20,000 nucleotides of DNA from an uncultured virus (IMG/VR IMGVR_UViG_3300042317_001647) (IMGVR_UViG_3300042317_001647:53003-73002), one strand, 5' to 3'. Shown: positions 3 through 18,615, counted from the stretch's first letter. Made by a program: numbers and translations. Notes: generated by a model from the sequence alone, not told the origin.

Positions 3-428
3 TACCTATGTCAATCCGAGCTCGAATATACTAGAATTATCGAATTCGTAGATGCACTTCATAATGAAAAAACATTAATTGCACAAGAGTATATTGGTGA
101 TCGCCCAGGTGAGGATTTAAGAGTGTTTGTGGTTGGTGGCAAAGTTCTGGGCGCAATGAAAAGAACCGCACCAAAAAATGACTTTAGAGCCAATATATCA
201 AATGGTGGGACTGGCGAGAAATACGAAGTTACCCCAGAAATAGAAGAGATTGCAATTGACACAGCAGATGTGCTAGGATTAGACATAGCCGGTATTGATT
301 TGCTTTTTACAAAAGAAGGATTTGTTGTGTGTGAAGCAAATTCAAACCCAGGATTTAGCGGATTTAACCAATATTGTAATGTTAATGTCGCAGACCACAT
401 TGTAAACTATATAGAAAATATGTTATGA
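3..428 (+). CDS. RimK-family ATP-grasp ligase, C-terminal part (5' truncated by window)
   Basis: Frame is open from the window edge (YLCQSE...AQEYIGDRPGEDLRVFVVGGKVLGAMKR...DFRANISNGG...GIDLL...VCEANSNPGF), matching RimK/LysX ATP-grasp motifs. Confidence 0.88.
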   Translation, partial: YLCQSELEYTRIIEFVDALHNEKTLIAQEYIGDRPGEDLRVFVVGGKVLGAMKRTAPKNDFRANISNGGTGEKYEVTPEIEEIAIDTADVLGLDIAGIDLLFTKEGFVVCEANSNPGFSGFNQYCNVNVADHIVNYIENML

Positions 429-2494
429 TTAAAAAAATATTATTAAACCCTTGGACGGCATTATTAACATTGATTGTAATATTAAGTGTTCGAATTTCTG
501 ATCCAGAATTTGTGGAAAGTGTTAGATTACGATATTTTGACACGCTTATTTCAGCAAAACCTATCACAAATAATCCAATTTATACTATTAATATCGATGA
601 AAACTCATTAGATAAGTATGGACAATGGCCATTTAAACGCGATATATATTCCCAAATAGTCGAAGATCTATATAAACATAATGCTGGATTGGTTGTTCTC
701 AATATTTTAATGCCTGAAACCGACCGCCAAGGTGGGGATAAGATATTGGCTGAAACATTAAAAAATAATCAGATTATCTTACCAAGTATACCAGCCGATT
801 TTACTAAAAATACACCAAGAATCACAGGTGCAGCTGTATTAGGACCAGATTATTTAGATAGGATAATCCAATACCCAGGTATCATTTCAAATATAGAGAT
901 TTTAAACGACAAAGCAGCAGGTGTTGGCACAGTTAATACCTTACCAGAAATAGACGGTGTTAATCGTAGAATGCCATTAGTGGTTTCAGTTAAGGATAAG
1001 TTATACCCATCGTTAGGTTTAGAAACATTGCGGGTTGCGGCTGGTGATACTACATTCCAAATCAAACTAAATGAAAATGGTGTTGAAAAACTGAGAATTC
1101 CTAAATTTGGACCGATCACTACTGATAATTTAGGCCGTATCTGGATTGATTGGAGTCAGAAGTCTATCAACAAAGGTTTAAATACTATCACAGATGATTA
1201 CGATTTTATTGGTGGGATCGTCATTGTTGGACCAACCGCAGCAGGGATTGGTAACCCAATACCAACTGCCAATGGTGCTATCTTTCCACATGAAGCACAA
1301 GCAGCAGTAATAGGAACAATGATGAATGGGGTTTTTATCCAACGCCCTGATTATGCAGATGGCGTGGAGGTATTAGTATTATTAATAACTGGTACTATAT
1401 TGTTATTCCTCACTAGATGGATTTATATTGGGCTAGCATCAATAATTGCACTGTCAGTTGGTGCCGTATTCGCCAGTCACTATGTATTTTTAACATATTT
1501 GTATCTGTTTGACATAACTGCTTTCGTAAGTGGTATAGTGTTGGTTGGTTTACATGCTTACGGTGTTAAATTCCTCAGTGAATTCTTTCAAAAGCAACAA
1601 ATTAAAAAACAATTTGGCACTTATTTAAGCCCTGCTTTAGTAGAAAAATTACAGAAAAATCCTGAATTATTAACATTAGGCGGTGAGTCACGTGAACTTT
1701 CAATTATGTTTACAGATGTACATGGATTCACATCTATTTCAGAACATTATGGTAAAAATGTACAAGGATTGACACAAATAATGAACCGTTATATGACTGC
1801 TATGACCGCAAAAATCATTGAAAACGATGGAACATTAGACAAATATATCGGCGATGCTCAAATGGCGTTTTGGAATGCCCCACTAGATGACCCCGATCAT
1901 GCAAAACATGCTGTAAAAACAGCATTACAAATGTTAATTAACTTAAAGGAGTTTAATGATGAGATCGAGAAAGAGGGGGTACCTGCATTCGGTATGGGAC
2001 TTGGTATTAACACTGATACTGTCGTTGTTGGTAATATGGGTAGCAATCAGCGCTTTGATTATACTTGCCTTGGAGATGGGGTTAACCTCGCTTCACGTCT
2101 TGAAGGCCAAAGCAAGCCATACGGCGTCAAAATCGTTCTGGGCACGAAGACAGCAGACTATATCAAAGACGAATACTTTATAATCGAACTTGATAAAATC
2201 GCGGTAAAAGGTAAGAAAGAAGGCGTACACATTTTTACTGTGTTAAGCCATTTGGATGATTTTAATCATGATGATTATTATTATCCAGCATTATCTTACC
2301 ACAACCAAATGTTAAATGCCTATCGAAGCAAACATTGGGATGTGGCTTCTGAAATGTGTAAACAATTATTATGTGAGTTTGATGGTGACATGGATCATTA
2401 TTATGAAATGATGATTGATCGTATTGCTGAATACAAAAACAGTAATTCATTACCAAAAGTTTGGGATGGCACATTTGTTGCCACTAGTAAGTAA
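425..2494 (+). CDS. CHASE2-domain membrane adenylate/guanylate cyclase (class III)
   Basis: N-terminal CHASE2 motifs (INIDENSLDKYGQWPFKR, PEIDGVNRRMPL), three TM segments, then class III cyclase motifs (MFTDVHGFT, DKYIGDA, GLGINT, GDGVNLASRLEG, VKGK). Confidence 0.95.
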   Translation: MIKKILLNPWTALLTLIVILSVRISDPEFVESVRLRYFDTLISAKPITNNPIYTINIDENSLDKYGQWPFKRDIYSQIVEDLYKHNAGLVVLNILMPETDRQGGDKILAETLKNNQIILPSIPADFTKNTPRITGAAVLGPDYLDRIIQYPGIISNIEILNDKAAGVGTVNTLPEIDGVNRRMPLVVSVKDKLYPSLGLETLRVAAGDTTFQIKLNENGVEKLRIPKFGPITTDNLGRIWIDWSQKSINKGLNTITDDYDFIGGIVIVGPTAAGIGNPIPTANGAIFPHEAQAAVIGTMMNGVFIQRPDYADGVEVLVLLITGTILLFLTRWIYIGLASIIALSVGAVFASHYVFLTYLYLFDITAFVSGIVLVGLHAYGVKFLSEFFQKQQIKKQFGTYLSPALVEKLQKNPELLTLGGESRELSIMFTDVHGFTSISEHYGKNVQGLTQIMNRYMTAMTAKIIENDGTLDKYIGDAQMAFWNAPLDDPDHAKHAVKTALQMLINLKEFNDEIEKEGVPAFGMGLGINTDTVVVGNMGSNQRFDYTCLGDGVNLASRLEGQSKPYGVKIVLGTKTADYIKDEYFIIELDKIAVKGKKEGVHIFTVLSHLDDFNHDDYYYPALSYHNQMLNAYRSKHWDVASEMCKQLLCEFDGDMDHYYEMMIDRIAEYKNSNSLPKVWDGTFVATSK

Positions 2495-3458: not shown

Positions 3459-4418
3459 TCAAGGTCTTCGTACAATATTTATCCATTTTGTACGAAGATT
3501 AGTTGCTCTGTTTTTTGCCAATAATGATTTCATTTTAGAAATATAAGAATTAAATTCTTCATCATTCATTGAAGCATATTTTCTTCCCATTATTTCTTGT
3601 TGGTTGGTTTTCTTTCCTTTTTTGGCTATACTTATTTTAGCACCAAAATCTTCAGCCTTTTTAATACCTTTACTTTTTTCACTCATCTTCTTTCTTGTTT
3701 CATCAGATATTACTCTTCCTTTACCGGCTTCTCCAATTTTTCGTTTGGTGAGTTCAGAGTGCTTATACGTTTTTCCTATATACCATCCTTCACCCGGGCA
3801 GTCGTTTGAAAATGTATCTTCTATACCGTTCGTCCAACATTTTCTCCCTTTTACATTAGTATTACCAAGTTGTGCCAATCTTGATTTTTCAATAGAAATC
3901 GGGCATTTCTTTCTTCCAGTATTATATTTTATTACTGCTTCTATTGCAGCTGCAGATGGTTTTCGCCCTTTATTAGAAGCTGATATTTTATCTTTTGTTT
4001 CCTGAGAACATTTTTTACCCAATTTTAATTCTGACATATATTCAGACCAATTTATTTTTGCTTGTTCAAATTCTTCACCAGACTGTATTTTTCTATGCAT
4101 GTCTAGAGTTCTTGCAGATGTCATATACCATAATGCACAAACCATTTTTGATCTATTTTTACCATCTGTCATTTCTAGTAATAATTTATGACAATTATAA
4201 TGTTCTTCTGCTGTCAATAAAACTTTGTTCCATAATGATTTTTTATATTCTGGAAATATTGATTTTGGTAGTACGTGATGCTCTTCGTAATATTGATACA
4301 GAGGGTTTGTCTTTCTATATTTTTTACGAGGTTGTTGAATTGCATATTCTATTATAGTATAATAGTGTTGTGTTGCTAAATTAGCAGCAAACACACCTTG
4401 ATGTTGATAAATATTCAT
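3459..4418 (-). CDS. HNH homing endonuclease with NUMOD3 DNA-binding repeats
   Basis: EEHHVLPKS...LTAEEHYNCHKLL HNH core; repeated SQETKDKIS / HSELTKRKIG / SDETRKKMSE NUMOD3-like motifs; GGAG RBS upstream. Confidence 0.9.
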   Translation of the reverse strand: MNIYQHQGVFAANLATQHYYTIIEYAIQQPRKKYRKTNPLYQYYEEHHVLPKSIFPEYKKSLWNKVLLTAEEHYNCHKLLLEMTDGKNRSKMVCALWYMTSARTLDMHRKIQSGEEFEQAKINWSEYMSELKLGKKCSQETKDKISASNKGRKPSAAAIEAVIKYNTGRKKCPISIEKSRLAQLGNTNVKGRKCWTNGIEDTFSNDCPGEGWYIGKTYKHSELTKRKIGEAGKGRVISDETRKKMSEKSKGIKKAEDFGAKISIAKKGKKTNQQEIMGRKYASMNDEEFNSYISKMKSLLAKNRATNLRTKWINIVRRP

Positions 4419-5657: not shown

Positions 5658-5897
5658 ATAGTCTAACTTAAATCTGGTACATAGTATAAATGATCAGGAG
5701 TGGTACGCCATTATTGAACCATAGTTAGATATTTAATTTATCTATGCTAACATATAGAAGTCATAGAGTTCTATTTAGTAGCTCTACCTTAACAGGCTGA
5801 AGTCGCAAGGGTGTGCGGTATAGATATACAGAATTGTTGTAATTCCTTCAACGAGGAAGCGTTCAAGACGCGGGTTCGAAACCCGCCAGCTCCACCA
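5658..5897 (+). ncRNA. ssrA: tmRNA acceptor piece (permuted gene); 5' boundary uncertain
   Basis: Ends GAC-GCGGG-TTCGAAA-CCCGC-CAGCTCC-A-CCA, the canonical tmRNA 3' end; CGTTCAA, CCTTC and TTGTTG pair with the coding piece. Confidence 0.9.
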
Positions 5898-5980
5898 TAA
5901 GAACATAGGTTGGTATCAGAGTGGGGCCATAGCCATAAACTCCCTGCCCCTTAAAAGGGGAGTATCTATGTTTTTATGAT

Positions 5981-6197
5981 GGGGCTGTATTGGATTCGAT
6001 TGGGCGAAGAGTTAGAGAAGGCAACAGGAGAGATGACTGACCTAATCAGCATAAACATAGTAATCGCAAACGATTCTAAATTTGAATTCTACACTGTAGA
6101 TGGCATCTTTGATGCTATCGCTGCTTAATAACCAGCGAATTCTGGGGTAGGAAATACCTTATAACCAAAAATACCTAGTAGGGAGAAATCCCTACTA
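5981..6197 (+). ncRNA. ssrA: tmRNA coding piece, tag (A)ANDSKFEFYTVDGIFDAIAA
   Basis: Starts GGGGCTG..GGATTCGA; pairs with CAGCTCC giving G3.U70; resume codon GCA at 6066, TAA TAA at 6126-6131; tag ends in AA. Confidence 0.92.
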
Positions 6198-6204
6198 TCT
6201 TTTT
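6176..6204 (+). terminator. Intrinsic terminator after tmRNA
   Basis: TAGTAGGGA-GAAA-TCCCTACTA followed by TCTTTTT. Confidence 0.8.
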
Positions 6205-6229
6205 ACACATTCACATTCAAAAGGGTATT

Positions 6230-7369
6230 ATGAAGTCTTTTAAACCTGTTCAAGTGTCATCATCTGGTACTGAAGTTTCAGTTAAACAGTCATTTACACC
6301 AGTTTCACCTAAACAATTGTCAGATTTAGGCGCATCCAATCCTCGTGTACTCCAATTACTTTCAACATTTGATTCACCAACCGGGATTATCGATTACGGG
6401 GCGGATGTTATGTCAGATATTGCCAAAAAATCAGAAGCTTTATTAAATGAAGTCAAAGATGCTGACGTTGACTTCGTTGAACAACAGTTAACTAGTATTC
6501 TAACAATGGCGAAGACATTTCACCTGAATACGAACAATAATTCAGATTCAAATATCTCAAAACTCTTTGGAAAGATCAAAGAAAAGTTTATTAATGTCCG
6601 TGAACAACTTTCAGCAGAATTCACTGATGTGTCCACACAAATGGACAAAATTATTGACGAAATTGATCAAGCCAATCACAGAATTATTGCCAAATTAAAC
6701 GGTCTGCAAGTGCAATACCGTGAAAATTTGAATGAATATCACAGATTAGAAAATTTGATCAAAGATGCAGAAGAAGCATACCAAATAATGGCAAAAGAAA
6801 TTGAAAAAATGCGGGTTAACGCATCAGATCTCCTTGCCGCCGAAGAAGTTAATAGAAGTACAAAAAATTTAGATCGATTGGAGAAGAAAATCGATTATTT
6901 GAAGAAATTTCAAATGATGGCTATTCAAAATGCACCTTCAATTAGTCAAATGGAAGATAGTGCTGCAACATTACTCCAAAAATTCCATGATATCAAAACT
7001 ATGACTATTCCATTATGGAAAAGACAAATCAGAATGTATATAGATGGTCAAGAATTAAGAAAAAGTGCAGCATTAGCAGCAGCAGTAGATGATGCAAACA
7101 ATACTCTAATTAAAACCAATTCAAACATCATTAGTGCTAATTCAATTGAATCAGCAAAATTAAACCAACGTTCATTGATAGATGATGCTACAATAGAACA
7201 TGTACATCAAAACCTAATCAGTACATTAGGAGAAATTGTGCAAATAAACAATACTGGTAAAGAAACTAGAATTAAAAGTGCATCGAGAATGGATGAAATG
7301 AAGCGCATGTATGCTTCCATTTCATCTAATGCTGGACGGACCACTATTGCAGGACCAAAAACCCATTAA
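6230..7369 (+). CDS. Toxic anion resistance protein (TelA/KlaB family)
   Basis: Coiled-coil protein with IDYGA, QNAPSI, TIPLWK and NQRSLID motifs typical of TelA. Confidence 0.85.
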   Translation: MKSFKPVQVSSSGTEVSVKQSFTPVSPKQLSDLGASNPRVLQLLSTFDSPTGIIDYGADVMSDIAKKSEALLNEVKDADVDFVEQQLTSILTMAKTFHLNTNNNSDSNISKLFGKIKEKFINVREQLSAEFTDVSTQMDKIIDEIDQANHRIIAKLNGLQVQYRENLNEYHRLENLIKDAEEAYQIMAKEIEKMRVNASDLLAAEEVNRSTKNLDRLEKKIDYLKKFQMMAIQNAPSISQMEDSAATLLQKFHDIKTMTIPLWKRQIRMYIDGQELRKSAALAAAVDDANNTLIKTNSNIISANSIESAKLNQRSLIDDATIEHVHQNLISTLGEIVQINNTGKETRIKSASRMDEMKRMYASISSNAGRTTIAGPKTH

Positions 7370-7399
7370 TTTTTTAACAATCAACCGAGATAAGTAAAA

Positions 7400-8080
7400 A
7401 TGGCTATTGATTTAACTAAAAGAGCAGAAAAAGTAGGTATCATCCTAACTAAAAAACAAATCCGTGACATTCCATGCCAAGTAAAACTGGCAATTGATCG
7501 CAGTGGGTCCATGAATACCCTATATCGCAACAAAGTCGTTCAAGATGTGGTAGAACGAGTGCTAGCAATTGGTATGAACATCGATAAAGATAAAATTATT
7601 GACATTTGGGCATTTCATAATGATTCATTTGAGCTGCCATCAGTCAATATTAGCAACATCGAAGACTTTGTTGACCGTGAAATCGTCAAAAAAATTAGTG
7701 AAGGTGGTACAGAGTATGCACCAGTCATGAAAGACATCGTTAATAGTGCCGCACCAGTACAAACTGGCCTATTTGGGAAGTTGTTTGGGAAGAAATCTAA
7801 TTCAACTGACCCATCATTAGCTATTTTCATCACCGATGGCGAGAATTTCGATCAACAAGCAACTGAAAAGGTTATCATAGAATCACAATCTAAAGATTTA
7901 TATTGGGTTTTGATCGGTATTGGTGGTGGGAACTTCTCATTTATCGAATATTTGGGCGAAAAATACCCAAATGCCGGTTATTTGAAGATAGATGATATCG
8001 AAAGTATCAGTGATGAAGACTTATATGAAGACATTATCAGCCAAGAATTTGCTGATTGGGTCGGAAAGTTTAAAAAATAA
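7400..8080 (+). CDS. vWA-domain protein of ter clusters
   Basis: MIDAS motif DRSGSM, GGTEYAP, FITDGE, WVLIGIG. Confidence 0.88.
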   Translation: MAIDLTKRAEKVGIILTKKQIRDIPCQVKLAIDRSGSMNTLYRNKVVQDVVERVLAIGMNIDKDKIIDIWAFHNDSFELPSVNISNIEDFVDREIVKKISEGGTEYAPVMKDIVNSAAPVQTGLFGKLFGKKSNSTDPSLAIFITDGENFDQQATEKVIIESQSKDLYWVLIGIGGGNFSFIEYLGEKYPNAGYLKIDDIESISDEDLYEDIISQEFADWVGKFKK

Positions 8081-8108
8081 TTGACATACCTGAATTTACA
8101 GGTAGAAT
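8081..8108 (+). promoter_or_regulatory. sigma70-type promoter with palindromic site
   Basis: TTGACA-N16-TAGAAT; TACCTG-N6-CAGGTA palindrome in the spacer. Confidence 0.6.
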
Positions 8109-8143
8109 GAAGATTCTTTCAACAAACACACAGGTAATAATCA

Positions 8144-9151
8144 ATGTTACAATATTTTAAAGGTTCTTTTTTGATTGCTGGTATCGGTATCGTACTAGCA
8201 TATTTGATCGGTGGGCTCGAAGCAGCCTGGATCACGTTAGTTTTATCAATTCTTGAAGTTAGTTTGAGTTTTGATAATGCCGTCGTGAATGCACAAGTTC
8301 TAAAAGGAATGGATGATATATGGCGTCATCGTTTCATTACCTGGGGTATGGCTATTGCTGTATTTGGTATGAGAATGGTGTTTCCATTAGCAATTGTGTC
8401 AGTTGCATTGGGAATTAACCCATATTCATCATTCATGTTAGCAGTTAATGACCCAGAACAGTATTCTCATGCGCTAGAATCAGTCCATACCTCAGTCATG
8501 GGTTTCGGTGGCACATTCCTAATGATGGTTGCATTAAAGTTTTTCATCGATCATGACAAAGATACGCATTGGCTTAAACCAATTGAAGAAAGATTCACTA
8601 AATTAGGCAAAATTGAAGCAATACAATCTGCAATTACATTAGTATTGGTATATATTGTTTACAAAATCATCGGATCCACACATAATGAAACAGAAGCATC
8701 AGCATTCTTGGTCGCAAGTGTATTCGGATTAGTAACGTACATTCTTGTCGATGGTTTAGAAGCAGTAATCGGGACTGATGATGGCACGGTTACAGGTGCA
8801 GTAGCCAAATCCGGGTTAGCATCGTTTCTTTACTTGGAAGTATTAGATGCAAGCTTCAGTTTCGACGGAGTATTAGGTGCATTAGCATTGACAAACAATA
8901 TTTTCATCATCATGATTGGCCTTGGTATCGGTGCGTTATTCGTAAGAAGCTTAACATTACTAATGGTAGATAAGGGCACTGTTGATGAATTCATTTACCT
9001 AGAGCATGGTGCATTCTATGCAATATTTGGATTGGCTATCATCATGTTCGTAAATACTGTATACGAAATTCCAGAAAGCATTACAGGGTTGATTGGTGCT
9101 GCATTCATTGGTGCATCATTGATCTCTTCAATCAAACACAAATCAATTTAA
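8144..9151 (+). CDS. DUF475 / TerC-like integral membrane protein
   Basis: LEVSLSFDNAVVNA, LEVLDASFSFDGV and YLEHGAFYAI motifs; many TM helices. Confidence 0.92.
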   Translation: MLQYFKGSFLIAGIGIVLAYLIGGLEAAWITLVLSILEVSLSFDNAVVNAQVLKGMDDIWRHRFITWGMAIAVFGMRMVFPLAIVSVALGINPYSSFMLAVNDPEQYSHALESVHTSVMGFGGTFLMMVALKFFIDHDKDTHWLKPIEERFTKLGKIEAIQSAITLVLVYIVYKIIGSTHNETEASAFLVASVFGLVTYILVDGLEAVIGTDDGTVTGAVAKSGLASFLYLEVLDASFSFDGVLGALALTNNIFIIMIGLGIGALFVRSLTLLMVDKGTVDEFIYLEHGAFYAIFGLAIIMFVNTVYEIPESITGLIGAAFIGASLISSIKHKSI

Positions 9152-9174
9152 TTAAACTACCAAGAGGTAATAAC

Positions 9175-9744
9175 ATGGCAATTAATCTTGCAAAATCTGA
9201 AAATAAAGGTATCAACCTAACCAAATCACAACCTGCCATGGGAAAGGTAAAGGCAGTATTATGGTGGAATGTTCCAGATAACAATCCAAAATATGATTTA
9301 GATGTATCAGCGTTTGTTTTGAAAACAACCGATAATGGTCCGAAGTTGTTAGGTGATGACTATTTGGTGTTCTATAACAATGAAGCGACACCTGAAAAAA
9401 GTGTTTCAAAAACACCAGATATGCGTCAAGGTGGTACCGAAGAGGTTTTCATCGATATCAATACGTTACCAGCAACAGTTGATGAAATTTCAATTGTTGT
9501 AACCATCCATGAAGCTGTATCTCGTGGTCAGTCTTTTGGTCAGGTACCTGAAGCAGGTATCAAAATCTTAAATGCTGATACCAATGAGGAAATTGCATTC
9601 TATGATCTAGATGCTGACTACAAAAATGAAACAGCCGTTCAAGTTGGATCATTCTTCAAACGTGATGGACAATTCTCATTCCAGGCAATTGGAGCCGGGT
9701 TCGATGGTCTTGAGTTAGGCGATATCGTCAGCGGTTATCAATAA
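9175..9744 (+). CDS. terD: TerD-family stress protein
   Basis: MAINLAK, YDLDVSAF, LVFYNN, VTIHEA..RGQSFGQV, FQAIGAGF. Confidence 0.9.
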   Translation: MAINLAKSENKGINLTKSQPAMGKVKAVLWWNVPDNNPKYDLDVSAFVLKTTDNGPKLLGDDYLVFYNNEATPEKSVSKTPDMRQGGTEEVFIDINTLPATVDEISIVVTIHEAVSRGQSFGQVPEAGIKILNADTNEEIAFYDLDADYKNETAVQVGSFFKRDGQFSFQAIGAGFDGLELGDIVSGYQ

Positions 9745-10167: not shown

Positions 10168-10242
10168 GCACCCGAAGCTACTAGGTATAGCACAAGCCTC
10201 TAAAACTTGCGACAATGGGTTCGAATCCCATCGGGTGCACCA
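10168..10242 (+). tRNA. tRNA with CUA anticodon (amber suppressor)
   Basis: GCACCCG/CGGGTGC acceptor, GCTA/TAGC D stem, CAAGC-CTCTAAA-ACTTG anticodon arm (C31.A39 mismatch), ATGGG-TTCGAAT-CCCAT T arm, ACCA. Confidence 0.85.
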
Positions 10243-11619: not shown

Positions 11620-12145
11620 ATTAGGCAAATAAATTTAGGCAACGATAAATATGATTTCACAGGCACTTTTTCAGGCTATACACTTCTGATACACTCGCAC
11701 CGGTGGTTTGACAGGTGCCCCAGGAAATGGAATGTTCTTCGCATGGAGGGAAACAGCTGAGTAGAAGCAGCGACTCATTCGACTACTTGCACATTGTGAT
11801 GCAAATGATGATTGGATACGCCTACGTACAACCAATTTCGAATGTTTGAACAAAAGATAAAAAGGCTAAATGACCAGGTAATTCCTGGACGTATTAGGAA
11901 TATGGTAGAGTATTTTCCTAATGCCACCGTTGGACAACAGAAACAAAAACGCACTTCGAGGTATCGGCCAACCGCCTCTGTAACCAGTGTAACTCTACTA
12001 ATGAAGTCAACTCAGTTGAAATTATTTTTTTGCTCCCTTTATGGGGGCAAAAGTAAATCGTAATCTAGTTGAATAGGTAAGATAGAAATTATAAAAAATG
12101 TGATGAGCGATAGCGAAGAACAGGAGAACGTTAGTTCTCCTTTAG
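11620..12145. other. Large hairpin-rich non-coding block (ncRNA or replication origin)
   Basis: Raised GC, no credible ORF, at least 8 inverted repeats. Confidence 0.5.
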
Positions 12146-12172: not shown

Positions 12173-12751
12173 ATGATTGGGTATAAAAGAAATTCTTTAT
12201 ACATTAAAGCTAAAGAAATATTTGAGCAAGATTGTAGGGATGTAAAATTAGATGATCAATTGGAACAATGGAAAGATGTAATGAATCATTATGGTTTTGA
12301 ACATCTTGGTAGTGGTTCAAATGGTTCTGCATATATGTATCCTGGTTATTCTTGGGTGTTTAAGATATTTCGTGGTGATGATGCCTATTTGTGCTTCATT
12401 AGATACGTATTAAGCAATCAGGACAATCCTAATCTACCTAAAATTAAAGGTGGGATAATACAAATTACTTCAGATACATATCTGGTGAGATTAGAGAAAC
12501 TACACCCGTTATTACCTGGTGAATATGATAAGATTTCAGTTGTTATAGATGATATGGCCTATTCTTTGATTGATCGACGATCATATCATGAACTCAGTAA
12601 TCATCAAAAGAGATCAATCAATAAATTCCCGTGGATTTACAAATTTTTGAAGTATTGGTGCGATAATATCGTCTATGATTTAGATTTAAGAGAATCTAAC
12701 ATTATGGTACGTGGTGATACACCGGTATTGTTGGATCCTGTATCTTTGTAA
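12173..12751 (+). CDS. Protein kinase-like fold protein
   Basis: Gly loop LGSGSNGSAY, WVFKIF lysine, catalytic DLRESNIM, metal-binding LLDP. Confidence 0.78.
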   Translation: MIGYKRNSLYIKAKEIFEQDCRDVKLDDQLEQWKDVMNHYGFEHLGSGSNGSAYMYPGYSWVFKIFRGDDAYLCFIRYVLSNQDNPNLPKIKGGIIQITSDTYLVRLEKLHPLLPGEYDKISVVIDDMAYSLIDRRSYHELSNHQKRSINKFPWIYKFLKYWCDNIVYDLDLRESNIMVRGDTPVLLDPVSL

Positions 12752-13704: not shown

Positions 13705-13733
13705 TTGACAGACACAGAAACACAGATTATAAT
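13705..13733 (+). promoter_or_regulatory. Consensus sigma70 promoter at the head of the tRNA array
   Basis: TTGACA-N17-TATAAT. Confidence 0.75.
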
Positions 13734-13873: not shown

Positions 13874-13962
13874 AATATTAAAACACATTGAGAATAGTAG
13901 AATTTGATTTCTACGGAATGTAGACAGTGGATTTGAACGACCCACCAGTGTGTTTTAATATT
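13874..13962 (+). ncRNA. Long-stem cassette S1
   Basis: AATATTAAAACACATTG / CAGTGTGTTTTAATATT, 17 bp with one G.U. Confidence 0.5.
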
Positions 13963-14028
13963 AAAACATACTAGATCAGCATTAAGAATTACGGTTCTTG
14001 ACAAGTTAAAGTGAGTATGTTTTAATAT
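13958..14028 (+). ncRNA. Long-stem cassette S2
   Basis: ATATTAAAACATACT / AGTATGTTTTAATAT, perfect 15 bp. Confidence 0.5.
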
Positions 14029-14077
14029 ACACTCTTCACTGACTACGAATCAGTTAAAATGCATAGCAGGAGAGTGT
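14029..14077 (+). ncRNA. Mini-RNA displaying an Arg(ACG) anticodon stem-loop
   Basis: ACACTCTTC/GGAGAGTGT closing stem; ACTGA-CTACGAA-TCAGT inside. Confidence 0.5.
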
Positions 14078-14088
14078 TATAAGTTATT

Positions 14089-14181
14089 GGGTGTCTTGAG
14101 GCTATGGCGTGTGCCTCTCTTGACTGTAAATCAAGTCCCTCGTGGTAAACATTCGCGGTTCGAATCCGTGGACACCCACCA
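14089..14181 (+). tRNA. tRNA-Tyr(GTA)
   Basis: GGGTGTC/GACACCC, CTTGA-CTGTAAA-TCAAG, long variable region, T arm, ACCA; unusual 5-bp D stem. Confidence 0.9.
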
Positions 14182-14194
14182 ATTTTTTAATTAT

Positions 14195-14273
14195 CTCCGT
14201 GTAGCTCAGTTTGGTAGAGCGCTCGATTTGGGATCGAGAGGATTCGTAGGTTCAAATCCTACCACGGAGACCA
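14195..14273 (+). tRNA. tRNA-Pro(TGG)
   Basis: CTCCGTG/CACGGAG, CTCGA-TTTGGGA-TCGAG, ACCA. Confidence 0.93.
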
Positions 14274-14274
14274 A

Positions 14275-14388
14275 TTTATATAAAAACACATTCACGGTTA
14301 GGGGATACTGAGCATCTGGACGCAGGGGCTATCCGAAAGTGTAGGCATACATACCGAAAGCTCAGAAACGAGTGTGTTTCTATATAAA
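14275..14388 (+). ncRNA. Long-stem cassette S3
   Basis: TTTATATAAAAACACATTC / GAGTGTGTTTCTATATAAA (18 of 19 paired); inner CTGAGC/GCTCAG. Confidence 0.5.
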
Positions 14389-14395
14389 AGTTTAT

Positions 14396-14470
14396 ATCCT
14401 GGTAGTTTAATGGTGAAAACACTGGATTTTCATTCCAGTAATCCGAGTTCGATCCTCGGTCGGGATACCA
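14396..14470 (+). tRNA. tRNA-Glu(TTC)
   Basis: ATCCTGG/TCGGGAT, CTGGA-TTTTCAT-TCCAG, ACCA. Confidence 0.9.
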
Positions 14471-14476
14471 AATTAT

Positions 14477-14576
14477 ATCTGTATAGCTCAGTCTGGTAGA
14501 GCACCTAACTATGTGGCCTAGGTAAACACATAGAGCATTAGGAGGTCGCGGGTTCGAATCCCATTACAGATGTCCA
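14477..14576 (+). tRNA. tRNA-like gene with a 29-nt hairpin insert in place of the anticodon loop
   Basis: ATCTGTA/TACAGAT acceptor, canonical D arm, CCTAA/TTAGG stem enclosing CTATGTG/CACATAG, TTCGAAT T loop. Confidence 0.6.
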
Positions 14577-14587
14577 TTATGAATAAT

Positions 14588-14666
14588 GGCCGATGGGACT
14601 GCATGGAGTGGTCACTTGCCTGTCACGCAAGATATCAGAGGGGATTGTTACCCCTATCGGTCGCCA
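14588..14666 (+). tRNA. tRNA-Asp(GTC), non-canonical T loop
   Basis: GGCCGAT/ATCGGTC, CTTGC-CTGTCAC-GCAAG, T loop ATTGTTA, GCCA. Confidence 0.8.
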
Positions 14667-14672
14667 AATTAT

Positions 14673-14727
14673 GGGGCAAAAAGATGAAATCCTGTCAAGG
14701 ATTTTAACAGCAATTATAGCCCCGCCA
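14673..14727 (+). ncRNA. Armless tRNA-like mini-element
   Basis: GGGGC/GCCCC-G-CCA; AAATCC-TGTCAA-GGATTT hairpin containing GTC; CAGCAA motif. Confidence 0.4.
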
Positions 14728-14742
14728 ATTTTTGAGGTAAAA

Positions 14743-15273
14743 ATGTTAGATATAACTATAACAGGATTATACGAAGCAAGTTTATGGGCACCAACCCATA
14801 CTAAAGTCATTAGCATTGTTGATCCAACTACCAAAGTATTTGAATGTGATGTTCCACATCATGTAGAAAGATTTCATGATATTGAAGTACCATTAGAAGG
14901 ATATCAACATCCTACTTTACAAAATATTGAAAATATTTTAGAATTCAGTAAAACATTTACTGATACTGATAAAGTTTTAATTCATTGTCATGCTGGTGTT
15001 AGTAGAAGTACAGCAACTGCTATTCTAGTACTAATACAACATGGCATGGGTATTAAAGAAGCGTTTGAGAAGGTTTATTCAATTCGTGATTGCATGAATC
15101 CTAATGTAATGATAATTAATTACGGTGATGAACTATTGGAATGCAATGGTGAATTGTCCGATTATTATAATAAATGGTCTGATGATAACCGTATAGAATA
15201 CGGACGATTTGGTGGACAAACATGGGATAGTAATACAGATGCTATGAAAAATATCTTGCAAATGTTCAAATAA
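14743..15273 (+). CDS. Cys-dependent protein tyrosine/dual-specificity phosphatase
   Basis: HCHAGVSRS (CX5R) and FHDI motifs; GAGG RBS before ATG 14743; the ORF-track start lies within tRNA-Asp. Confidence 0.9.
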   Translation: MLDITITGLYEASLWAPTHTKVISIVDPTTKVFECDVPHHVERFHDIEVPLEGYQHPTLQNIENILEFSKTFTDTDKVLIHCHAGVSRSTATAILVLIQHGMGIKEAFEKVYSIRDCMNPNVMIINYGDELLECNGELSDYYNKWSDDNRIEYGRFGGQTWDSNTDAMKNILQMFK

Positions 15274-15295
15274 TACGTTATAATTTACACAGTTT

Positions 15296-15350
15296 TAGGA
15301 TACATGCAGCAATTAAAAAACATTCTTGAAAAATGAAAAAGCGTATCCTG
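15296..15350 (+). ncRNA. CAGCA-stem RNA A, Ser(TGA) anticodon mimic
   Basis: TAGGATAC/GTATCCTG stem, CAGCAA, CATT-CTTGAAA-AATG; TTGCAA-N17-TATAAT at 15256-15284. Confidence 0.65.
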
Positions 15351-15358
15351 ATAATTTT

Positions 15359-15434
15359 GCTACTGTGGCAGTGATGGTTCATGCACTGGACTGAAAATTC
15401 AGCTATACTGGTTCGATCCCAGTCGGTAGCACCA
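15359..15434 (+). tRNA. tRNA-Phe(GAA)
   Basis: GCTACTG/CGGTAGC, CTGGA-CTGAAAA-TTCAG, ACCA. Confidence 0.9.
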
Positions 15435-15459
15435 ATTTTAACTTTACAATTTGGTAATT

Positions 15460-15738
15460 ATGGAATATATTAACCCAGACAATCCAGAACTCACTATTAG
15501 CGTATCTGATACAACAATAGTTTTTATGAAAAATGGAAGATCGCATAACACAGATGGACCAGCAATTATTAGATATGATGGCCGCAGAACTTGTTATTGC
15601 CAAGATGGGAAATATCATAATGAACACGGCCCTGCTGTTATTACTAATTTCACAGAAGAAGAATATTGGTTGCATGGTAAAAAGATCTATTTAAAAAGTA
15701 AATGGGAACAACAAGTTCTTGAAGATCGAACCATCTAA
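15460..15738 (+). CDS. Hypothetical protein with HxxxGPA beta-repeats
   Basis: HNTDGPAII and HNEHGPAVI repeats, EYWLHGK. Confidence 0.75.
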   Translation: MEYINPDNPELTISVSDTTIVFMKNGRSHNTDGPAIIRYDGRRTCYCQDGKYHNEHGPAVITNFTEEEYWLHGKKIYLKSKWEQQVLEDRTI

Positions 15739-15917
15739 TCAATGGATACTCTGACCCAGAGGATAAGAAGTGTGGTGATACACATGGGTGGTATGCTTTG
15801 AACCAAAAGCACGTTGGCAATACGAGAATTCTGTTCCGCCAGAACCTGCAAGTTGATAACCATGAAGTACAAGTGGCAACCTCTGTGATAGCCGGGAATA
15901 AGAAAGCACCAATTTTA

Positions 15918-15991
15918 GCCTCCTTGGTTTAATGGGAGAACACTAGTCTTACACACTGGTTGCGGTAGTTCGATTCTATCAGGAGGCACCA
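15918..15991 (+). tRNA. tRNA-Val(TAC)
   Basis: GCCTCCT/AGGAGGC, CTAGT-CTTACAC-ACTGG, ACCA. Confidence 0.92.
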
Positions 15992-16009
15992 AACACAAAG
16001 GAAACTATT

Positions 16010-16336
16010 ATGGACGAAGAAACCCGAAAGAAATTTTTTACAAAAACTGAAGATACCGGTAGACATGTTGTTTATTCATATCGAACTGGTAAAACCTACT
16101 ATATTGAAGTTATCGGTGATAATCACACTAAATGGGGTGATCTTAATCCGAGTACTGGTAAATTAGAAGGTAGTTATGGTAGTAAATATCGTGGTTCTAT
16201 CGATTCTAATGATAGTTTGATTACAGAAACCAATGGATTTACTAATATCACGGAATTACAGCCTGGATACAGTCCATATGCTGAAATTGAACGCCGTGAT
16301 GCACAATATCCAGATAAAATAATTGACAACGTATAA
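16010..16336 (+). CDS. Hypothetical phage protein
   Basis: AAGGA RBS; TGRHVVYSYRTGKTYYIE...WGDLNP. Confidence 0.8.
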   Translation: MDEETRKKFFTKTEDTGRHVVYSYRTGKTYYIEVIGDNHTKWGDLNPSTGKLEGSYGSKYRGSIDSNDSLITETNGFTNITELQPGYSPYAEIERRDAQYPDKIIDNV

Positions 16337-16359
16337 AAATGCTGTATAATTAACAGCAT
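16323..16359 (+). promoter_or_regulatory. sigma70 promoter with palindrome over the -10 (copy 1)
   Basis: TTGACA-N16-TATAAT; ATGCTGT-N7-ACAGCAT. Confidence 0.75.
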
Positions 16360-16368
16360 AAACAGTTT

Positions 16369-16431
16369 TAGGATACATTCAGCAAACAATTTACACTGAA
16401 CTTTTAATTCAACTAGTAAAAACGTATCCTG
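16369..16431 (+). ncRNA. CAGCA-stem RNA B, Lys(TTT) anticodon mimic
   Basis: TAGGATAC/GTATCCTG, CAGCAA, TGAA-CTTTTAA-TTCA. Confidence 0.7.
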
Positions 16432-16497
16432 CTATAACAACATAGGAAATAATTATGAAACGAAAGACAAAAACAGAAAAAGAAGGCAAGAAAATTT

Positions 16498-16573
16498 GGG
16501 ATCGTAGTTCAATTGGTTAGAACACCGGACTTTTAATCCGGGAATTCGAGTTCGAGTCTCGGCGGTCCTACCA
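16498..16573 (+). tRNA. tRNA-Lys(TTT)
   Basis: GGGATCG/CGGTCCT, CCGGA-CTTTTAA-TCCGG, ACCA. Confidence 0.92.
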
Positions 16574-16577
16574 AATT

Positions 16578-16682
16578 ATATAATAAAGCATATTAGCGTC
16601 TGATCAGCGTTGTGTGGATCACAGTTTGAGCTCCGGGCTTGAATGAAGACGGTTCAATTCCGTGTAGTATGCTTTATTATAT
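16578..16682 (+). ncRNA. Long-stem cassette S4 with a T arm
   Basis: ATATAATAAAGCATATTA / TAGTATGCTTTATTATAT (18 bp); ACGG-TTCAATT-CCGT. Confidence 0.55.
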
Positions 16683-16688
16683 GATTTT

Positions 16689-16807
16689 ATATTAAAGTGC
16701 ATTAATCAGTCACCTTGACATCACTGGCCAGAAGGATGTTAAGCTTGAGGGCCGGAGACAGGAGGATGTGTAGCATTCGTGTTCCCTCGTTTAATGCACT
16801 TTACTAT
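16689..16807 (+). ncRNA. Long-stem cassette S5
   Basis: TAAAGTGCATTAA / TTAATGCACTTTA (13 bp, extendable); inner CTTGACATC/GATGTTAAG. Confidence 0.5.
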
Positions 16808-16814
16808 ATGATTA

Positions 16815-16933
16815 TATAATAAACCACACTATAAATGGTGGTAAGATACGTTCGATTCGTATTGAGGTACACTGGTGTGTTGAGTGCGACGGCAACCGAA
16901 GGTTCGAATCCTTCCGTAGTGTGGTTTATTATA
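16815..16933 (+). ncRNA. Long-stem cassette S6 with two T arms
   Basis: TATAATAAACCACACTA / TAGTGTGGTTTATTATA perfect 17 bp; ATACG-TTCGATT-CGTAT and GAAGG-TTCGAAT-CCTTC. Confidence 0.55.
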
Positions 16934-16951
16934 AAATTAGACTAATTAGGT

Positions 16952-17025
16952 GTGGCCGTGTCGGAATTGGTAGACGACCCTGATTGTGATTCAGAATTTT
17001 ATGGGTTCAAGTCCCATCGGTCACC
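16952..17025 (+). tRNA. tRNA-His(GTG), no encoded G-1 or CCA
   Basis: GTGGCCG/CGGTCAC-C, CCTGA-TTGTGAT-TCAGA, ATGGG-TTCAAGT-CCCAT. Confidence 0.85.
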
Positions 17026-17100
17026 CCTAATTAGTTTTGGTAACTACCCAGATGATTGATAACCTCAAATAATAAATACTCAGTAACATATAGGAAAACT

Positions 17101-17853: not shown

Positions 17854-17894
17854 ATCTGTCACTTATGTATAAATACATACAAGGAGTGACAGAT
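17854..17894 (+). promoter_or_regulatory. Start-sequestering hairpin with T4-type late promoter at its apex
   Basis: ATCTGTCACT / AGTGACAGAT stem covers the end of AAGGAG and the ATG; TATAAATA at 17868-17875. Confidence 0.85.
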
Positions 17895-18615
17895 GAACTA
17901 CTGCAAAATTTACAATTTGATTGTTCGTAACAGAATTATCAATCCAATTGATGGATATACCGAAACACATCACATAATACCAAGATCATTAGGCGGATCT
18001 AACGATTTAGATAATTTGGTTAAGTTATCTGCTAGAGAACATTATATTTGCCATTTATTATTGATGAAAATGTATAAATATGGCACAGTTGAATGGTGTA
18101 AAATGGTGAAAGCATTTTCATTTTTGTCGTATGGGCATAGTAATTATCATAACAGGTATGTTAATAGTAGATTTTATGAATTATTAAGAAGAAATTTTAG
18201 TTTAGCACAATCAGTGATGCAAACGGGTATTCGAAATTCACAATATGGTACTATGTGGATATGTAATTTAGAATTGAAGAAAAATAAAAAAATAAAAAAG
18301 ACAGATATAATCCCAGATGGGTGGATTAATGGAAAGGTTGTAAATTTTGATTCACACTATAAAAAACTACAAGAAAAAATAATAAAAAAACAAAATTTAG
18401 AACAAAAAACAAATGACAAAATAATAAGATTAAAAGAAATAATGTATTATTATAGAGATAACGATATCTCTATGCGAAATTTGACTAAAAAATTTAATGT
18501 AGGTCACAATATTTATAAATCATTTGAATTATATTTTAAAGATGAATATTATGAAATAGTTAAAACCAAAAGTGGGAATAGTAATACAACAAAAGGCAGA
18601 TATAAGCTCGATTAG
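17893..18615 (+). CDS. Free-standing HNH homing endonuclease
   Basis: ETHHIIPRSLGGSNDLDNLVKLSAREHYICHLLL; NSQYGTMWI motif; stop codon lies inside tRNA-Asp. Confidence 0.92.
   Translation: MNYCKIYNLIVRNRIINPIDGYTETHHIIPRSLGGSNDLDNLVKLSAREHYICHLLLMKMYKYGTVEWCKMVKAFSFLSYGHSNYHNRYVNSRFYELLRRNFSLAQSVMQTGIRNSQYGTMWICNLELKKNKKIKKTDIIPDGWINGKVVNFDSHYKKLQEKIIKKQNLEQKTNDKIIRLKEIMYYYRDNDISMRNLTKKFNVGHNIYKSFELYFKDEYYEIVKTKSGNSNTTKGRYKLD

What the first reader, a model, noticed from the sequence alone, without database searches (positions are those of the whole stretch)
13874..16933. Family of cassettes closed by 13-19 bp stems of shared sequence, also used in the tmRNA intervening segment
Seen: six cassettes (13874-13962, 13958-14028, 14275-14388, 16578-16682, 16689-16807, 16815-16933) begin with an AT-rich arm of the type TAAAACACATT / TAAAACATACT / TAAAGCATATT / TAAAGTGCATT / TAAACCACACT and end in its near-perfect complement. 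They enclose unrelated, GC-richer, structured 40-85 nt cargo. The tmRNA intervening segment has the same kind of stem (CATAAGAACATAGGT 5896-5910 / ATCTATGTTTTTATG 5964-5978). G.U pairs on the + strand favour function as RNA. Inference: a common processing signal (RNase III-like or a phage nuclease) releasing an array of small RNAs, or a family of tiny mobile elements inserting next to tRNA 3' ends (several start right after CCA).
Basis: partly seen in the sequence, partly recalled or inferred. Interest (0 to 1): 0.74.

Follow-up and report, generated by a model that had tools for sequence, protein, structure and literature searches.

The report
Constant-stem RNA cassettes in phage tRNA array
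Six small hairpin-closed units among the tRNA genes of a giant freshwater phage belong to a large, apparently undescribed family. A near-constant stem, usually starting on a tRNA's CCA end, frames many different swappable small RNAs.

Summary
All six cassettes and the tmRNA intervening segment are closed by 13-23 bp stems. Five such stems of 15 bp or more lie in the window; shuffles give 0.05.

The stems belong to a wide family. Two arm types carried by cassettes 1-3 gave 181 and 27 distinct cassettes in viral contigs. The same search over 185,579 prokaryote genomes gave 2 tiny contigs.

Of the 181, 121 start exactly on a tRNA's CCA end, mostly tRNA-Lys(UUU). The stem covaries.

Cargo falls into at least 119 unrelated groups. 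It is uncoupled from the flanks: near-identical flanks carry unrelated cargo, and the same cargo sits in unrelated flanks. Cargo families keep their own helices through compensatory changes. No Rfam family matches.

Best reading: these are RNA-level modules in the tRNA/tmRNA precursor. The stem marks and protects an excised spacer RNA, host nucleases do the cutting, and recombination in the shared arms shuffles the cargo. Cleavage and cargo function are unproven.

Earlier agents of this scan reached the same reading in other genomes. I found no paper describing it.

The parts
13705..13733 (+). perfect-consensus sigma-70-type promoter upstream of cassettes 1-3 and the first tRNAs
   Evidence: TTGACA-17-TATAAT, 12 of 12. 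A consensus match only.
13874..13962 (+). cassette 1: 17-bp stem (type-2 arm ATATTAAAACACATT / AGTGTGTTTTAATAT), 55-nt cargo
   Evidence: Arm type found with other cargo in 27 distinct viral-contig cassettes. Absent or replaced in L004/L005.
13958..14028 (+). cassette 2: 15-bp perfect stem (type-2 arm), 41-nt cargo; its 5' arm overlaps the 3' arm of cassette 1
   Evidence: (I10, I11). Conserved in L004, L007, L370, L372.
14275..14388 (+). cassette 3: 8 + 10 bp stem around an A x C mismatch (type-1 arm TATATAAAAACACAT / TGTGTTTCTATATA), 76-nt cargo; 3 nt after tRNA-Pro CCA, 7 nt before tRNA-Glu
   Evidence: Its cargo family has 12 aligned members, 10 of them in unrelated flanks (L261 and L335 share the window's). 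One helix is kept by 3 of 6 compensatory pairs.
16323..16350 (+). perfect-consensus sigma-70-type promoter upstream of tRNA-Lys and cassettes 4-6
   Evidence: 12 of 12.
16498..16573 (+). tRNA-Lys(UUU), whose CCA end is the first base pairs of cassette 4
   Evidence: In the wider family tRNA-Lys(UUU) is the upstream tRNA in 85 of 128 cases where a tRNA ends within 10 nt of the cassette.
16573..16687 (+). cassette 4: 23-bp stem, 69-nt cargo with a T-arm-like hairpin (16648-16664) abutting the 3' arm
   Evidence: (I2). Conserved in L004, L006, L007, L008. In L007/L008 it is separated from tRNA-Lys by an inserted endonuclease gene and keeps its stem.
16689..16807 (+). cassette 5: 13-bp core stem plus distal helix, 85-nt cargo with a 9-bp inner hairpin
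   Evidence: The inner hairpin varies only by G.U/A-U changes among W, L006 and L007.
16815..16933 (+). cassette 6: 18-bp stem, 83-nt cargo with a T-arm (16898-16914) one base from the 3' arm and a second TTCGATT hairpin (16845-16863)
   Evidence: (I4). Arm changes: CCACAC/GTGTGG in the window, CTACAC/GTGTAG in L007, CTACAC/GTGTGG in L006. The whole unit is absent in L004/L005.
16939..17037 (+). tRNA-His(GUG) whose leader and trailer pair to extend the acceptor stem by about 10 bp; CCU instead of CCA
   Evidence: I7; z -4.78. A real tRNA embedded in the same kind of closing stem.
5896..5978 (+). intervening segment of the permuted tmRNA gene: 15-bp stem starting on the CCA of the acceptor piece, 53-nt cargo
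   Evidence: L004's copy has arm ATAAAACATATTAG. The same cargo sits with exact type-2 arms in L389 beside a tRNA.

Best explanation
The six units are members of a large phage family of hairpin RNA cassettes. They lie in the spacers of tRNA/tmRNA transcription units, on the tRNA strand. A near-constant stem of about 18-20 bp closes a 40-100 nt cargo. In the canonical form the stem's first pairs are the discriminator and CCA of the upstream tRNA, paired to UGG(U), and the next tRNA starts on or next to that UGG.

Inferred mechanism: the stem is an RNA-level module. It brings together the two cuts that free the neighbouring tRNAs. One cut lies just after CCA, as RNase E makes at hairpins that follow CCA in E. 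coli proline tRNAs. The other is the RNase P cut at the next tRNA's 5' end; RNase III in the stem is an alternative. The spacer would be released as a hairpin-closed small RNA, which I expect to resist exonucleases because both ends lie in duplex. The phage-encoded permuted tmRNA uses the same module as its intervening segment.

The cargoes are many separate small structured RNAs of unknown function. The shared arms act as short homology, so cargo is exchanged, deleted and duplicated between sites and between co-infecting phages. The homing endonucleases in these arrays would help this.

Shown: the family, its placement, stem covariation, cargo/flank uncoupling and cargo covariation. Inferred: transcription as one precursor, the cleavage sites and enzymes, stability, and any cargo function.
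For: - Stems are real and non-random.
- Same strand as the tRNAs, downstream of 12/12 consensus promoters.
Arm type 2 gave 35 stretches, 27 distinct. Only 2 small MAG contigs matched in 185,579 species genomes.
- Placement: 121 of 181 start 0 nt after an ARAGORN tRNA end. 59 of 181 have the next tRNA 1-2 nt after the arm.
- Flanking triplets are CCA/TGG in 141 of 181. Where the 5' triplet is not CCA both sides sometimes change and keep pairing (TTA/TGA 5, TTA/TAA 3); other variants (CCA/TAG 6, CCA/TGT 5) do not pair fully.
- The discriminator is paired in 117 of 138.
- The innermost stem pair covaries: A-T 70, C-G 44, G-C 29, T-A 11. Position 13 is U.G 135, C-G 25, U-A 21.
- Type 1 and type 2 arms differ by a flipped pair (A-U to U-A). 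The adjacent A x C of type 1 is A-U in type 2.
- In L007/L008 cassette 4 keeps its 22-bp stem although an endonuclease gene now separates it from tRNA-Lys. The stem therefore serves the cassette, not only the tRNA.
- Uncoupling: 270 of 277 pairs with 90% or more identical upstream tRNA carry unrelated cargo. 117 of 122 same-cargo pairs have a flank under 70% identical.
- L173 and L210 are identical but for 1 to 3 bases over about 300 nt upstream and 210 nt downstream, with identical arms and wholly different cargo.
- Cargo structure: in 14 cargo groups with 3 or more members, 235 predicted cargo pairs split as 172 invariant, 30 compensatory, 21 one-sided but kept, 12 broken. The family of cassette 3 gave 97.1% paired cells, with 0 of 500 shuffles reaching the covariation score.
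- Known precedent for a single cut right after CCA that removes a following hairpin: PMC5291269 (abstract read).
Against: - No RNA ends were seen. The only RNA data are metatranscriptome contigs at low, even depth. They cannot show ends and may contain DNA.
- Cargo taken alone is only weakly more stable than shuffles: median z -0.42, and 40 of 119 representatives have z above 0. Much cargo could be filler.
- The alifold-based pair counts lean towards pairing by construction.
- No phage RNase III (0 of 5), RNase P RNA (0 of 5) or CCA-adding enzyme (0 of 3) was found. An RNA-ligase-family hit occurred in 1 of 3. There is no dedicated enzyme to point to.
- A complete 364-kb relative has only one canonical cassette plus one related hairpin for 31 tRNA/tmRNA genes. 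Most tRNAs mature without it.
- The fixed A x C mismatch and the U.G wobble are mirror images, so they do not tell the strand.
Confidence: 0.55

Rival explanations
1. Only the stem matters. It is a processing or insulating hairpin for maturation of the neighbouring tRNA ends (above all tRNA-Lys 3' and tRNA-His/Met 5'), and the cargo is tolerated filler that drifts and is swapped neutrally.
For: The stem is far more conserved than the cargo. Cargo shows a weak thermodynamic signal. Placement is strongly biased: Lys(UUU) upstream in 85 of 128, Met 32 and His 21 downstream. A hairpin after CCA is a known RNase E context (PMC5291269).
Against: Filler would be expected to shrink, yet cargo stays 38-98 nt. 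Cargo families persist at 74-96% identity across unrelated flanks and keep helices by compensatory changes. Tandem cassettes (4-5-6, 1-2) and cassette 4 in L007, which lies far from any CCA, keep their stems.
Confidence: 0.2
2. The cassettes are DNA-level selfish or recombination modules. The inverted-repeat arms would be ends or sites (MITE-like or attC-like) acted on by a phage nuclease or recombinase, for example the homing endonucleases in the array. This moves cargo or tRNA genes between sites.
For: Presence/absence and replacement occur within near-identical flanks. Cassette 6 is lost in L004 between the direct repeats TTTAYTATA of neighbouring 3' arms. An extra cassette in L006 carries cassette 3's arms and other cargo. 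Homing endonuclease genes lie at 3459-4418 and 17893-18615, and one sits exactly between tRNA-Lys and cassette 4 in L007.
Against: There are no target-site duplications: the flanks are complementary (CCA/TGG), not direct repeats. No transposase or integrase was found among 20 window ORFs. Orientation is fixed relative to the tRNAs, and cargo covaries in RNA fashion including G.U. Ordinary recombination in 18-bp shared arms suffices to explain the swaps.
Confidence: 0.15
3. Cassettes 4 and 6 (and the cargo with T-loops elsewhere) are aberrant tRNA-like genes whose leader and trailer pair. They would be decayed tRNAs or tRNA mimics such as Y-RNA-like or tmRNA-like domains.
For: A T-arm lies directly against the 3' arm in cassettes 4 and 6. 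23 of 181 cargoes carry GTTCRANTC. tRNA-His next door is a real tRNA inside such a stem. L250's cargo hits tmRNA weakly (20 bits against a cut-off of 47).
Against: ARAGORN and the Rfam tRNA model call none of the six, and 0 of 181. YrlA matches only at tRNA positions, at 18 bits against 69. No Ro/TROVE gene was found in 0 of 5 records. 158 of 181 cargoes lack a T-loop motif.
Confidence: 0.07

Closest known systems
Small stable RNAs co-transcribed with phage tRNA clusters (T4 species 1 and 2 RNAs; recalled, from no call)
   Same: Small non-tRNA RNAs encoded within a phage tRNA cluster, cut out of the same precursors by host RNases, with function still unknown.
   Different: As far as I recall, T4 has two fixed RNAs. 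It has no shared closing stem, no CCA anchoring and no exchangeable cargo. No sequence model was available to test similarity.
RNase III processing stems (rRNA operon leader-trailer stalks; T7 early-transcript hairpins; recalled)
   Same: Flanking sequences pair into a long helix that encloses the RNA to be released, and an internal mismatch lies in the helix.
   Different: Here the helix is 13-23 bp, AT-rich and of near-constant sequence. It begins on a tRNA CCA end and encloses about 40-100 nt. RNase III cleavage is untested, and the phages tested carry no RNase III gene.
One-step RNase E removal of the hairpin that directly follows CCA in E. coli proK/proL/proM (PMC5291269; abstract read)
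   Same: A stem-loop begins right after the encoded CCA, and a single endonucleolytic cut downstream of CCA would free both tRNA and hairpin. The first bases after CCA here are A/U-rich.
   Different: Those hairpins are Rho-independent terminators of monocistronic genes. These are internal spacers followed at once by another tRNA, with large variable tops.
Intervening sequence of permuted (two-piece) tmRNA genes (PMC11915505; passages read)
   Same: A segment between the CCA of the acceptor piece and the 5' end of the coding piece that is absent from the mature RNA. The window's own tmRNA uses a cassette of this family there.
   Different: The database paper does not describe a shared stem between intervening sequences and tRNA spacers. 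Here the same arms and even the same cargo occur at tRNA junctions.
Bacterial Y RNAs / YrlA (PMC4201824; search listing and start of abstract only)
   Same: A long stem formed by the 5' and 3' ends, plus a tRNA-like module with a T-arm. This resembles cassettes 4 and 6.
   Different: No YrlA model match on any cassette. No Ro/TROVE gene. Most cargo has no tRNA-like part.
Integron attC sites (recalled)
   Same: Imperfect inverted repeats with conserved ends, extrahelical or mismatched positions and a variable centre of similar size. Associated with modular exchange.
   Different: No integrase was found in the window. The arm sequence does not resemble the recalled core sites. Cargo shows RNA-type covariation, and the elements are tied to tRNA ends on the transcribed strand.

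Membership tests
CCA-anchored constant-stem cassette family of phage tRNA arrays (undescribed; defined) | 5' and 3' ends pair into a stem of 13 bp or more that encloses 40-100 nt | tested here: met
   All six cassettes and the tmRNA segment.
CCA-anchored constant-stem cassette family of phage tRNA arrays (undescribed; defined) | Arm sequence (CCA)UAU(A/U)AAAACACAYU paired to ARUGUGUUU(C/U)(U/A)AUA(UGG) | tested here: inconclusive
   Cassettes 1 and 2 carry the type-2 arm and cassette 3 the type-1 arm exactly. Cassettes 4-6 and the window's tmRNA segment carry diverged arms (TAAAGCATATT, TAAAGTGCATT, TAAACCACACT, TAAGAACATAGG).
CCA-anchored constant-stem cassette family of phage tRNA arrays (undescribed; defined) | Begins on the CCA end of a tRNA (or tmRNA acceptor piece), or follows another cassette in tandem, on the tRNA strand | tested here: met
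   Cassette 4 lies 0 nt after tRNA-Lys, the tmRNA segment 0 nt, cassette 3 is 3 nt after tRNA-Pro, and cassettes 2, 5 and 6 are in tandem. Cassette 1 follows a 130-nt leader. In the family, 121 of 181 are at 0 nt.
CCA-anchored constant-stem cassette family of phage tRNA arrays (undescribed; defined) | Cargo exchangeable between identical arms and flanks | tested here: met
   L006 has an extra unit with cassette 3's arms and other cargo. Cassette 6 is absent in L004/L005. For the family.
RNase III processing stem | Cleavage by RNase III within the helix, giving 2-nt 3' overhangs | not testable with these tools
   No raw RNA reads were available. No phage RNase III domain in 0 of 5 records.
tRNA (Rfam RF00005 / ARAGORN) | Cloverleaf recognised by the models | tested here: not met
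   No call on any of the six, even at E up to 10. 0 of 181 family members are overlapped by an ARAGORN tRNA.
Y RNA / YrlA (RF02553) | Match to the YrlA model, and a Ro (TROVE) protein partner | tested here: not met
   The only YrlA matches are 18 bits (cut-off 69), at tRNA positions. TROVE was found in 0 of 5 records.
Known self-cleaving ribozymes and other Rfam families | Match to any of 4227 covariance models | tested here: not met
   No family on any cassette in the window or in 23 related loci.
MITE-like transposable element | Direct target-site duplication and a shared internal sequence among copies | tested here: not met
   The flanks are complementary (CCA/TGG in 141 of 181), not duplicated. 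The interiors fall into 119 unrelated groups.
Integron attC / gene cassette | Tyrosine-recombinase integrase beside the array | tested here: not met
   No recombinase family among 20 window ORFs. The rest of the genome was not scanned for one.

The most novel reading that the evidence does not exclude
The constant stem is a natural plug-and-play RNA scaffold. It would be a universal clamp, anchored on a tRNA's CCA end, that lets giant freshwater phages express, excise and stabilise any of a pan-genomic library of more than 100 swappable small structured RNAs. These could be decoys or aptamers aimed at host RNA-targeting or tRNA-targeting defences. The arms would double as the recombination handles that trade these RNAs between phages.
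Probability: 0.25. Interest if true: 0.85.

Novelty: new variant of a known kind. Interest (0 to 1): 0.68.

Why it matters
If the reading is right, phage tRNA arrays are more than tRNA supplies. They would be expression platforms for a large, fast-shuffling repertoire of small RNAs that nobody has catalogued. The conserved stem gives a simple handle for finding them in metagenomes.

The same module inside a phage's two-piece tmRNA ties tmRNA permutation to ordinary tRNA-spacer processing. It offers a testable model of how the intervening segment is removed.

The stem could also serve as a compact natural scaffold for producing structured RNAs in bacteria.

The family is absent from Rfam. It was not found in six literature searches. 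Other agents of this scan have met it in other genomes, so this window adds a member and some new links rather than a first sighting.

Tried and rejected
- Rfam: at gathering and at loose thresholds, on the window and 23 related loci, nothing matched the cassettes.
- Named phage genomes: BLAST against 50,697 records hit only tRNAs.
- Bare 15-mer arm scan: swamped by chance hits. Only 3 of the 80 loci whose DNA was held had the partner arm.
- RNA evidence: three freshwater metatranscriptome runs of one sample hold 42-47% of the words. They are kept only as contigs, at low depth across genes and spacers alike. There are no ends, no strand and possibly DNA, so nothing can be said about expression or cleavage.
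- Antisense targets: the longest matches of the seven window cargoes to the 73-kb contig are 9-12 nt, within shuffles. The host is unknown, so host targets were not tested.
- A phage enzyme for the stem: RNase III, RNase P RNA and CCA-adding enzyme were not found. An RNA-ligase family hit occurred in 1 of 3. I therefore dropped the idea that the nick between the cassette's 3' end and the tRNA's 5' end is sealed into a circle.
- Weak kinase hit: ORF 12173-12751 hits a T7 gp0.7-like kinase PHROG, annotated as stimulating RNase III (E 3.6e-8). This is a hint only.
- Cargo stability: cargo alone is weakly stable, so 'all cargo is highly structured' was dropped.
- Reading cassettes 4 and 6 as tRNA-Arg(CCG)-like and tRNA-Ser(CGA)-like by hand did not give a credible D-arm, and no model supports it.

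Full report
**Setting.** The window is the last 20 kb of a 73-kb IMG/VR virus contig judged about 20% complete. Complete relatives that carry the same element are 364 kb with terminal repeats. The window holds:
- a permuted tmRNA gene (5805-6219);
- 13 ARAGORN tRNA genes on the + strand;
- a Polynucleobacter-1 RNA;
- a tellurite-resistance-type gene set;
- two HNH/NUMOD3 homing endonuclease genes.

Perfect-consensus sigma-70-type promoters face the two cassette groups, at 13705-13733 and 16323-16350.

**The observation.**
- Each unit folds end to end with z-scores of -3.4 to -5.7. In each case 0 of 200 shuffles folds as well.
- A scan for uninterrupted stems of 15 bp or more (2 G.U or fewer, 30-140 nt enclosed) finds 5 in the window. 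Twenty dinucleotide shuffles gave a mean of 0.05.
- Across the 73-kb contig, stems of this quality are confined to the tRNA/tmRNA region.
- Cargo is GC-richer than the window (0.35) for cassettes 3-6 and the tmRNA segment (0.48-0.53). It is not for cassettes 1 and 2 (0.38, 0.34).
- Cassettes 4 and 6 carry a T-arm-like hairpin directly against the 3' arm (16648-16664, 16898-16914).
- The neighbouring tRNA-His is a true tRNA sitting inside a comparable leader-trailer stem, and it lacks an encoded CCA.

**Close relatives.** A neighbouring ORF retrieved five viral contigs with 97-99% identical flanks.
- The cassettes are conserved there, and arm changes keep pairing. Cassette 6 reads CCACAC/GTGTGG in the window, CTACAC/GTGTAG in L007 and CTACAC/GTGTGG (G.U) in L006.
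- Units come and go. Cassette 6 is missing from L004/L005, and the junction falls between the direct repeats TTTAYTATA of two neighbouring 3' arms.
- L006 has an extra 126-nt unit between cassettes 4 and 5. It has the arms of cassette 3 and unrelated cargo.
- Cassette 1 is replaced in L004.
- In L007/L008 a different tRNA-Lys allele and a DUF559/NUMOD3 endonuclease gene sit between tRNA-Lys and cassette 4. Cassette 4 keeps its 22-bp stem there.

**The wider family.**
- Type-1 arm (cassette 3). It was searched as TATAARAACACAY, 38-99 nt, RTGTGTTYCTATA. They reduce to 181 distinct cassettes, 64-124 nt long.
- Type-2 arm (cassettes 1 and 2). It gave 35 stretches, 27 distinct.
- Prokaryote genomes. 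The same type-1 pattern over one genome from each of 185,579 species gave two hits. Both are on 1.5- and 2.8-kb contigs of freshwater MAGs. The element therefore belongs to phages, not hosts.
- Placement. Of the 181, 121 begin 0 nt after an ARAGORN tRNA's CCA. The upstream tRNA is Lys(UUU) in 85 of the 128 cases where a tRNA ends within 10 nt of the cassette. 59 have the next tRNA starting 1-2 nt after the arm, most often Met or His. None is itself called a tRNA.
- Stem base. The flanking triplets are CCA/TGG in 141 of 181. Where the 5' triplet is not CCA, both sides sometimes change and keep pairing (TTA/TGA 5, TTA/TAA 3). Other variants, such as CCA/TAG (6) and CCA/TGT (5), do not pair fully. 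The discriminator base is paired in 117 of 138.
- Covariation. The innermost stem pair covaries freely. Position 13 is U.G in 135, C-G in 25 and U-A in 21.
- Arm types compared. Type 2 differs from type 1 by a flipped A-U pair, and by an A-U pair where type 1 has a fixed A x C.
- One complete genome. A 364-kb member has one canonical cassette (tRNA-Lys to tRNA-His), one related hairpin and a stem-closed tmRNA segment. It has none outside the tRNA regions.

**Cargo.** The 181 cassettes fall into 119 cargo groups by BLAST clustering. Cargo and flanks are uncoupled.
- Among 277 pairs whose upstream 76 nt are 90% or more identical, 270 carry cargo from different groups (median identity 0.47, i.e. 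unrelated).
- Among 122 same-cargo pairs, 117 have a flank under 70% identical.
- In the clearest case, L173 and L210 are identical but for 1 to 3 bases over about 300 nt upstream and 210 nt downstream. They have identical arms and wholly different cargo of different length.
- The same cargo families occur inside both arm types (compare).

Cargo families are conserved RNAs rather than noise.
- The family of cassette 3 has 12 aligned members, 10 of them in unrelated flanks. One helix has compensatory changes in 3 of its 6 pairs, and it crosses another invariant helix. Overall 97.1% of cells are paired, and 0 of 500 shuffles reach the covariation score.
- Over the 14 groups with three or more members, 235 predicted cargo pairs divide into 172 invariant, 30 compensatory, 21 one-sided but kept and 12 broken. 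That count leans towards pairing because the structure was predicted from the same alignments.

Against a strong claim: cargo alone is only slightly more stable than shuffles (median z -0.42; 40 of 119 above zero). Only 23 of 181 cargoes have a T-loop motif.

**tmRNA link.** The window's intervening segment starts on the CCA of the acceptor piece and ends at the 5' strand of the tRNA-like domain. L004's copy has an arm of the cassette type. The same cargo, about 90% identical, sits between exact type-2 arms in L389. There a tRNA follows 9 nt downstream, and Rfam finds no tmRNA in the 688 nt held. The intervening segment is therefore a member of the family, not merely similar.

**Mechanism.**

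Shown: a selected helix joins the 3' end of one tRNA (or tmRNA piece) to the 5' end of the next RNA, on the transcribed strand.

Inferred: the two cuts that mature those ends would release the spacer as a hairpin with both ends in duplex.
- One cut lies just after CCA. RNase E makes such a cut where a hairpin follows CCA in E. coli proline tRNAs (PMC5291269, abstract).
- The other is the RNase P cut at +1 of the next tRNA.
- RNase III cleavage in the stem is an alternative.

No phage RNase III, RNase P RNA or CCA-adding enzyme was found, so host enzymes would act. Cargo function is unknown. The shared arms give 18 bp or more of identity at every cassette. Together with the homing endonucleases in these arrays, that is enough to explain deletion, duplication and exchange without a dedicated transposition system.

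**Comparison and novelty.** The nearest known things each share one aspect:
- T4's co-transcribed stable RNAs (recalled);
- RNase III processing stalks (recalled);
- hairpins removed after CCA by RNase E (PMC5291269);
- tmRNA intervening sequences (PMC11915505, passages);
- Y RNAs (PMC4201824, listing only).

None combines a near-constant CCA-anchored stem with a large pool of exchangeable cargo. Six literature searches found no description. Notes of this scan show that other agents met the same family in other genomes and read it the same way. Those notes are not independent evidence. I re-derived the family from this window before seeing them.

Noticed in passing
window 10168-10242 (+): ARAGORN calls a tRNA with anticodon CUA (amber suppressor type, labelled Pyl). 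Rfam tRNA scores 54 bits. ORFs in the window read open under table 11, so recoding was not apparent.
   Followed up: no
window 14476-14576 (+): A tRNA called Thr(UGU) of 101 nt. Its anticodon arm is lengthened by a 7-bp hairpin with an 11-nt loop, an insertion of about 25 nt. It is absent from relatives L004/L007.
   Followed up: partly
window 14588-14668 (+): An unannotated tRNA-like RNA. It has a 7-bp acceptor stem ending GCCA, an anticodon-type arm with GUC, an odd 6-bp hairpin in place of the D-arm and a weak T-arm. ARAGORN and Rfam do not call it.
   Followed up: partly
window 15742-15904 (+): A 162-nt non-coding block ending in CACCA just before tRNA-Val. It is precisely absent in L007/L008, and part of it is 78% identical to a stretch near the tRNA genes of the 364-kb relative (L350:431-512).
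   Followed up: partly
window 15256-15350 and 16323-16435 (+): A repeated unit: a consensus promoter followed by a hairpin AGGATACAT...CGTATCCT. It gives sub-threshold hits to the Dictyostelium Class I RNA model here and in L127/L128 (29-40 bits against 41.5).
   Followed up: no
window 11692-11847 (+): Polynucleobacter-1 RNA motif, 64.6 bits. Also present in relatives L004 and L007.
   Followed up: no
window 12173-12751 (+): An ORF with a weak match to the PHROG of T7 gp0.7-like protein kinase, annotated as stimulating RNase III (E 3.6e-8). It lies next to a P-loop kinase ORF.
   Followed up: no
window 425-2494 and 6230-9744 (+): A CHASE2-adenylate/guanylate cyclase protein, and a TelA / TerF-like vWA / TerC / TerD gene set, in a phage genome.
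   Followed up: no
L007 6597-7259 (also L008): A DUF559 (Vsr-like) + NUMOD3 endonuclease gene inserted exactly between a divergent tRNA-Lys allele and cassette 4. This looks like a homing event at the family's favourite junction.
   Followed up: partly
L368 2284-2748 (- strand; G003 about 362.3-362.7 kb): A GOLLD RNA (204 bits) lies inside the tRNA array of the complete 364-kb relative.
   Followed up: no
L006 1181-2070: An insertion of about 890 nt next to tRNA-Val, relative to the window. It is also seen as a joint in metatranscriptome contigs.
   Followed up: no
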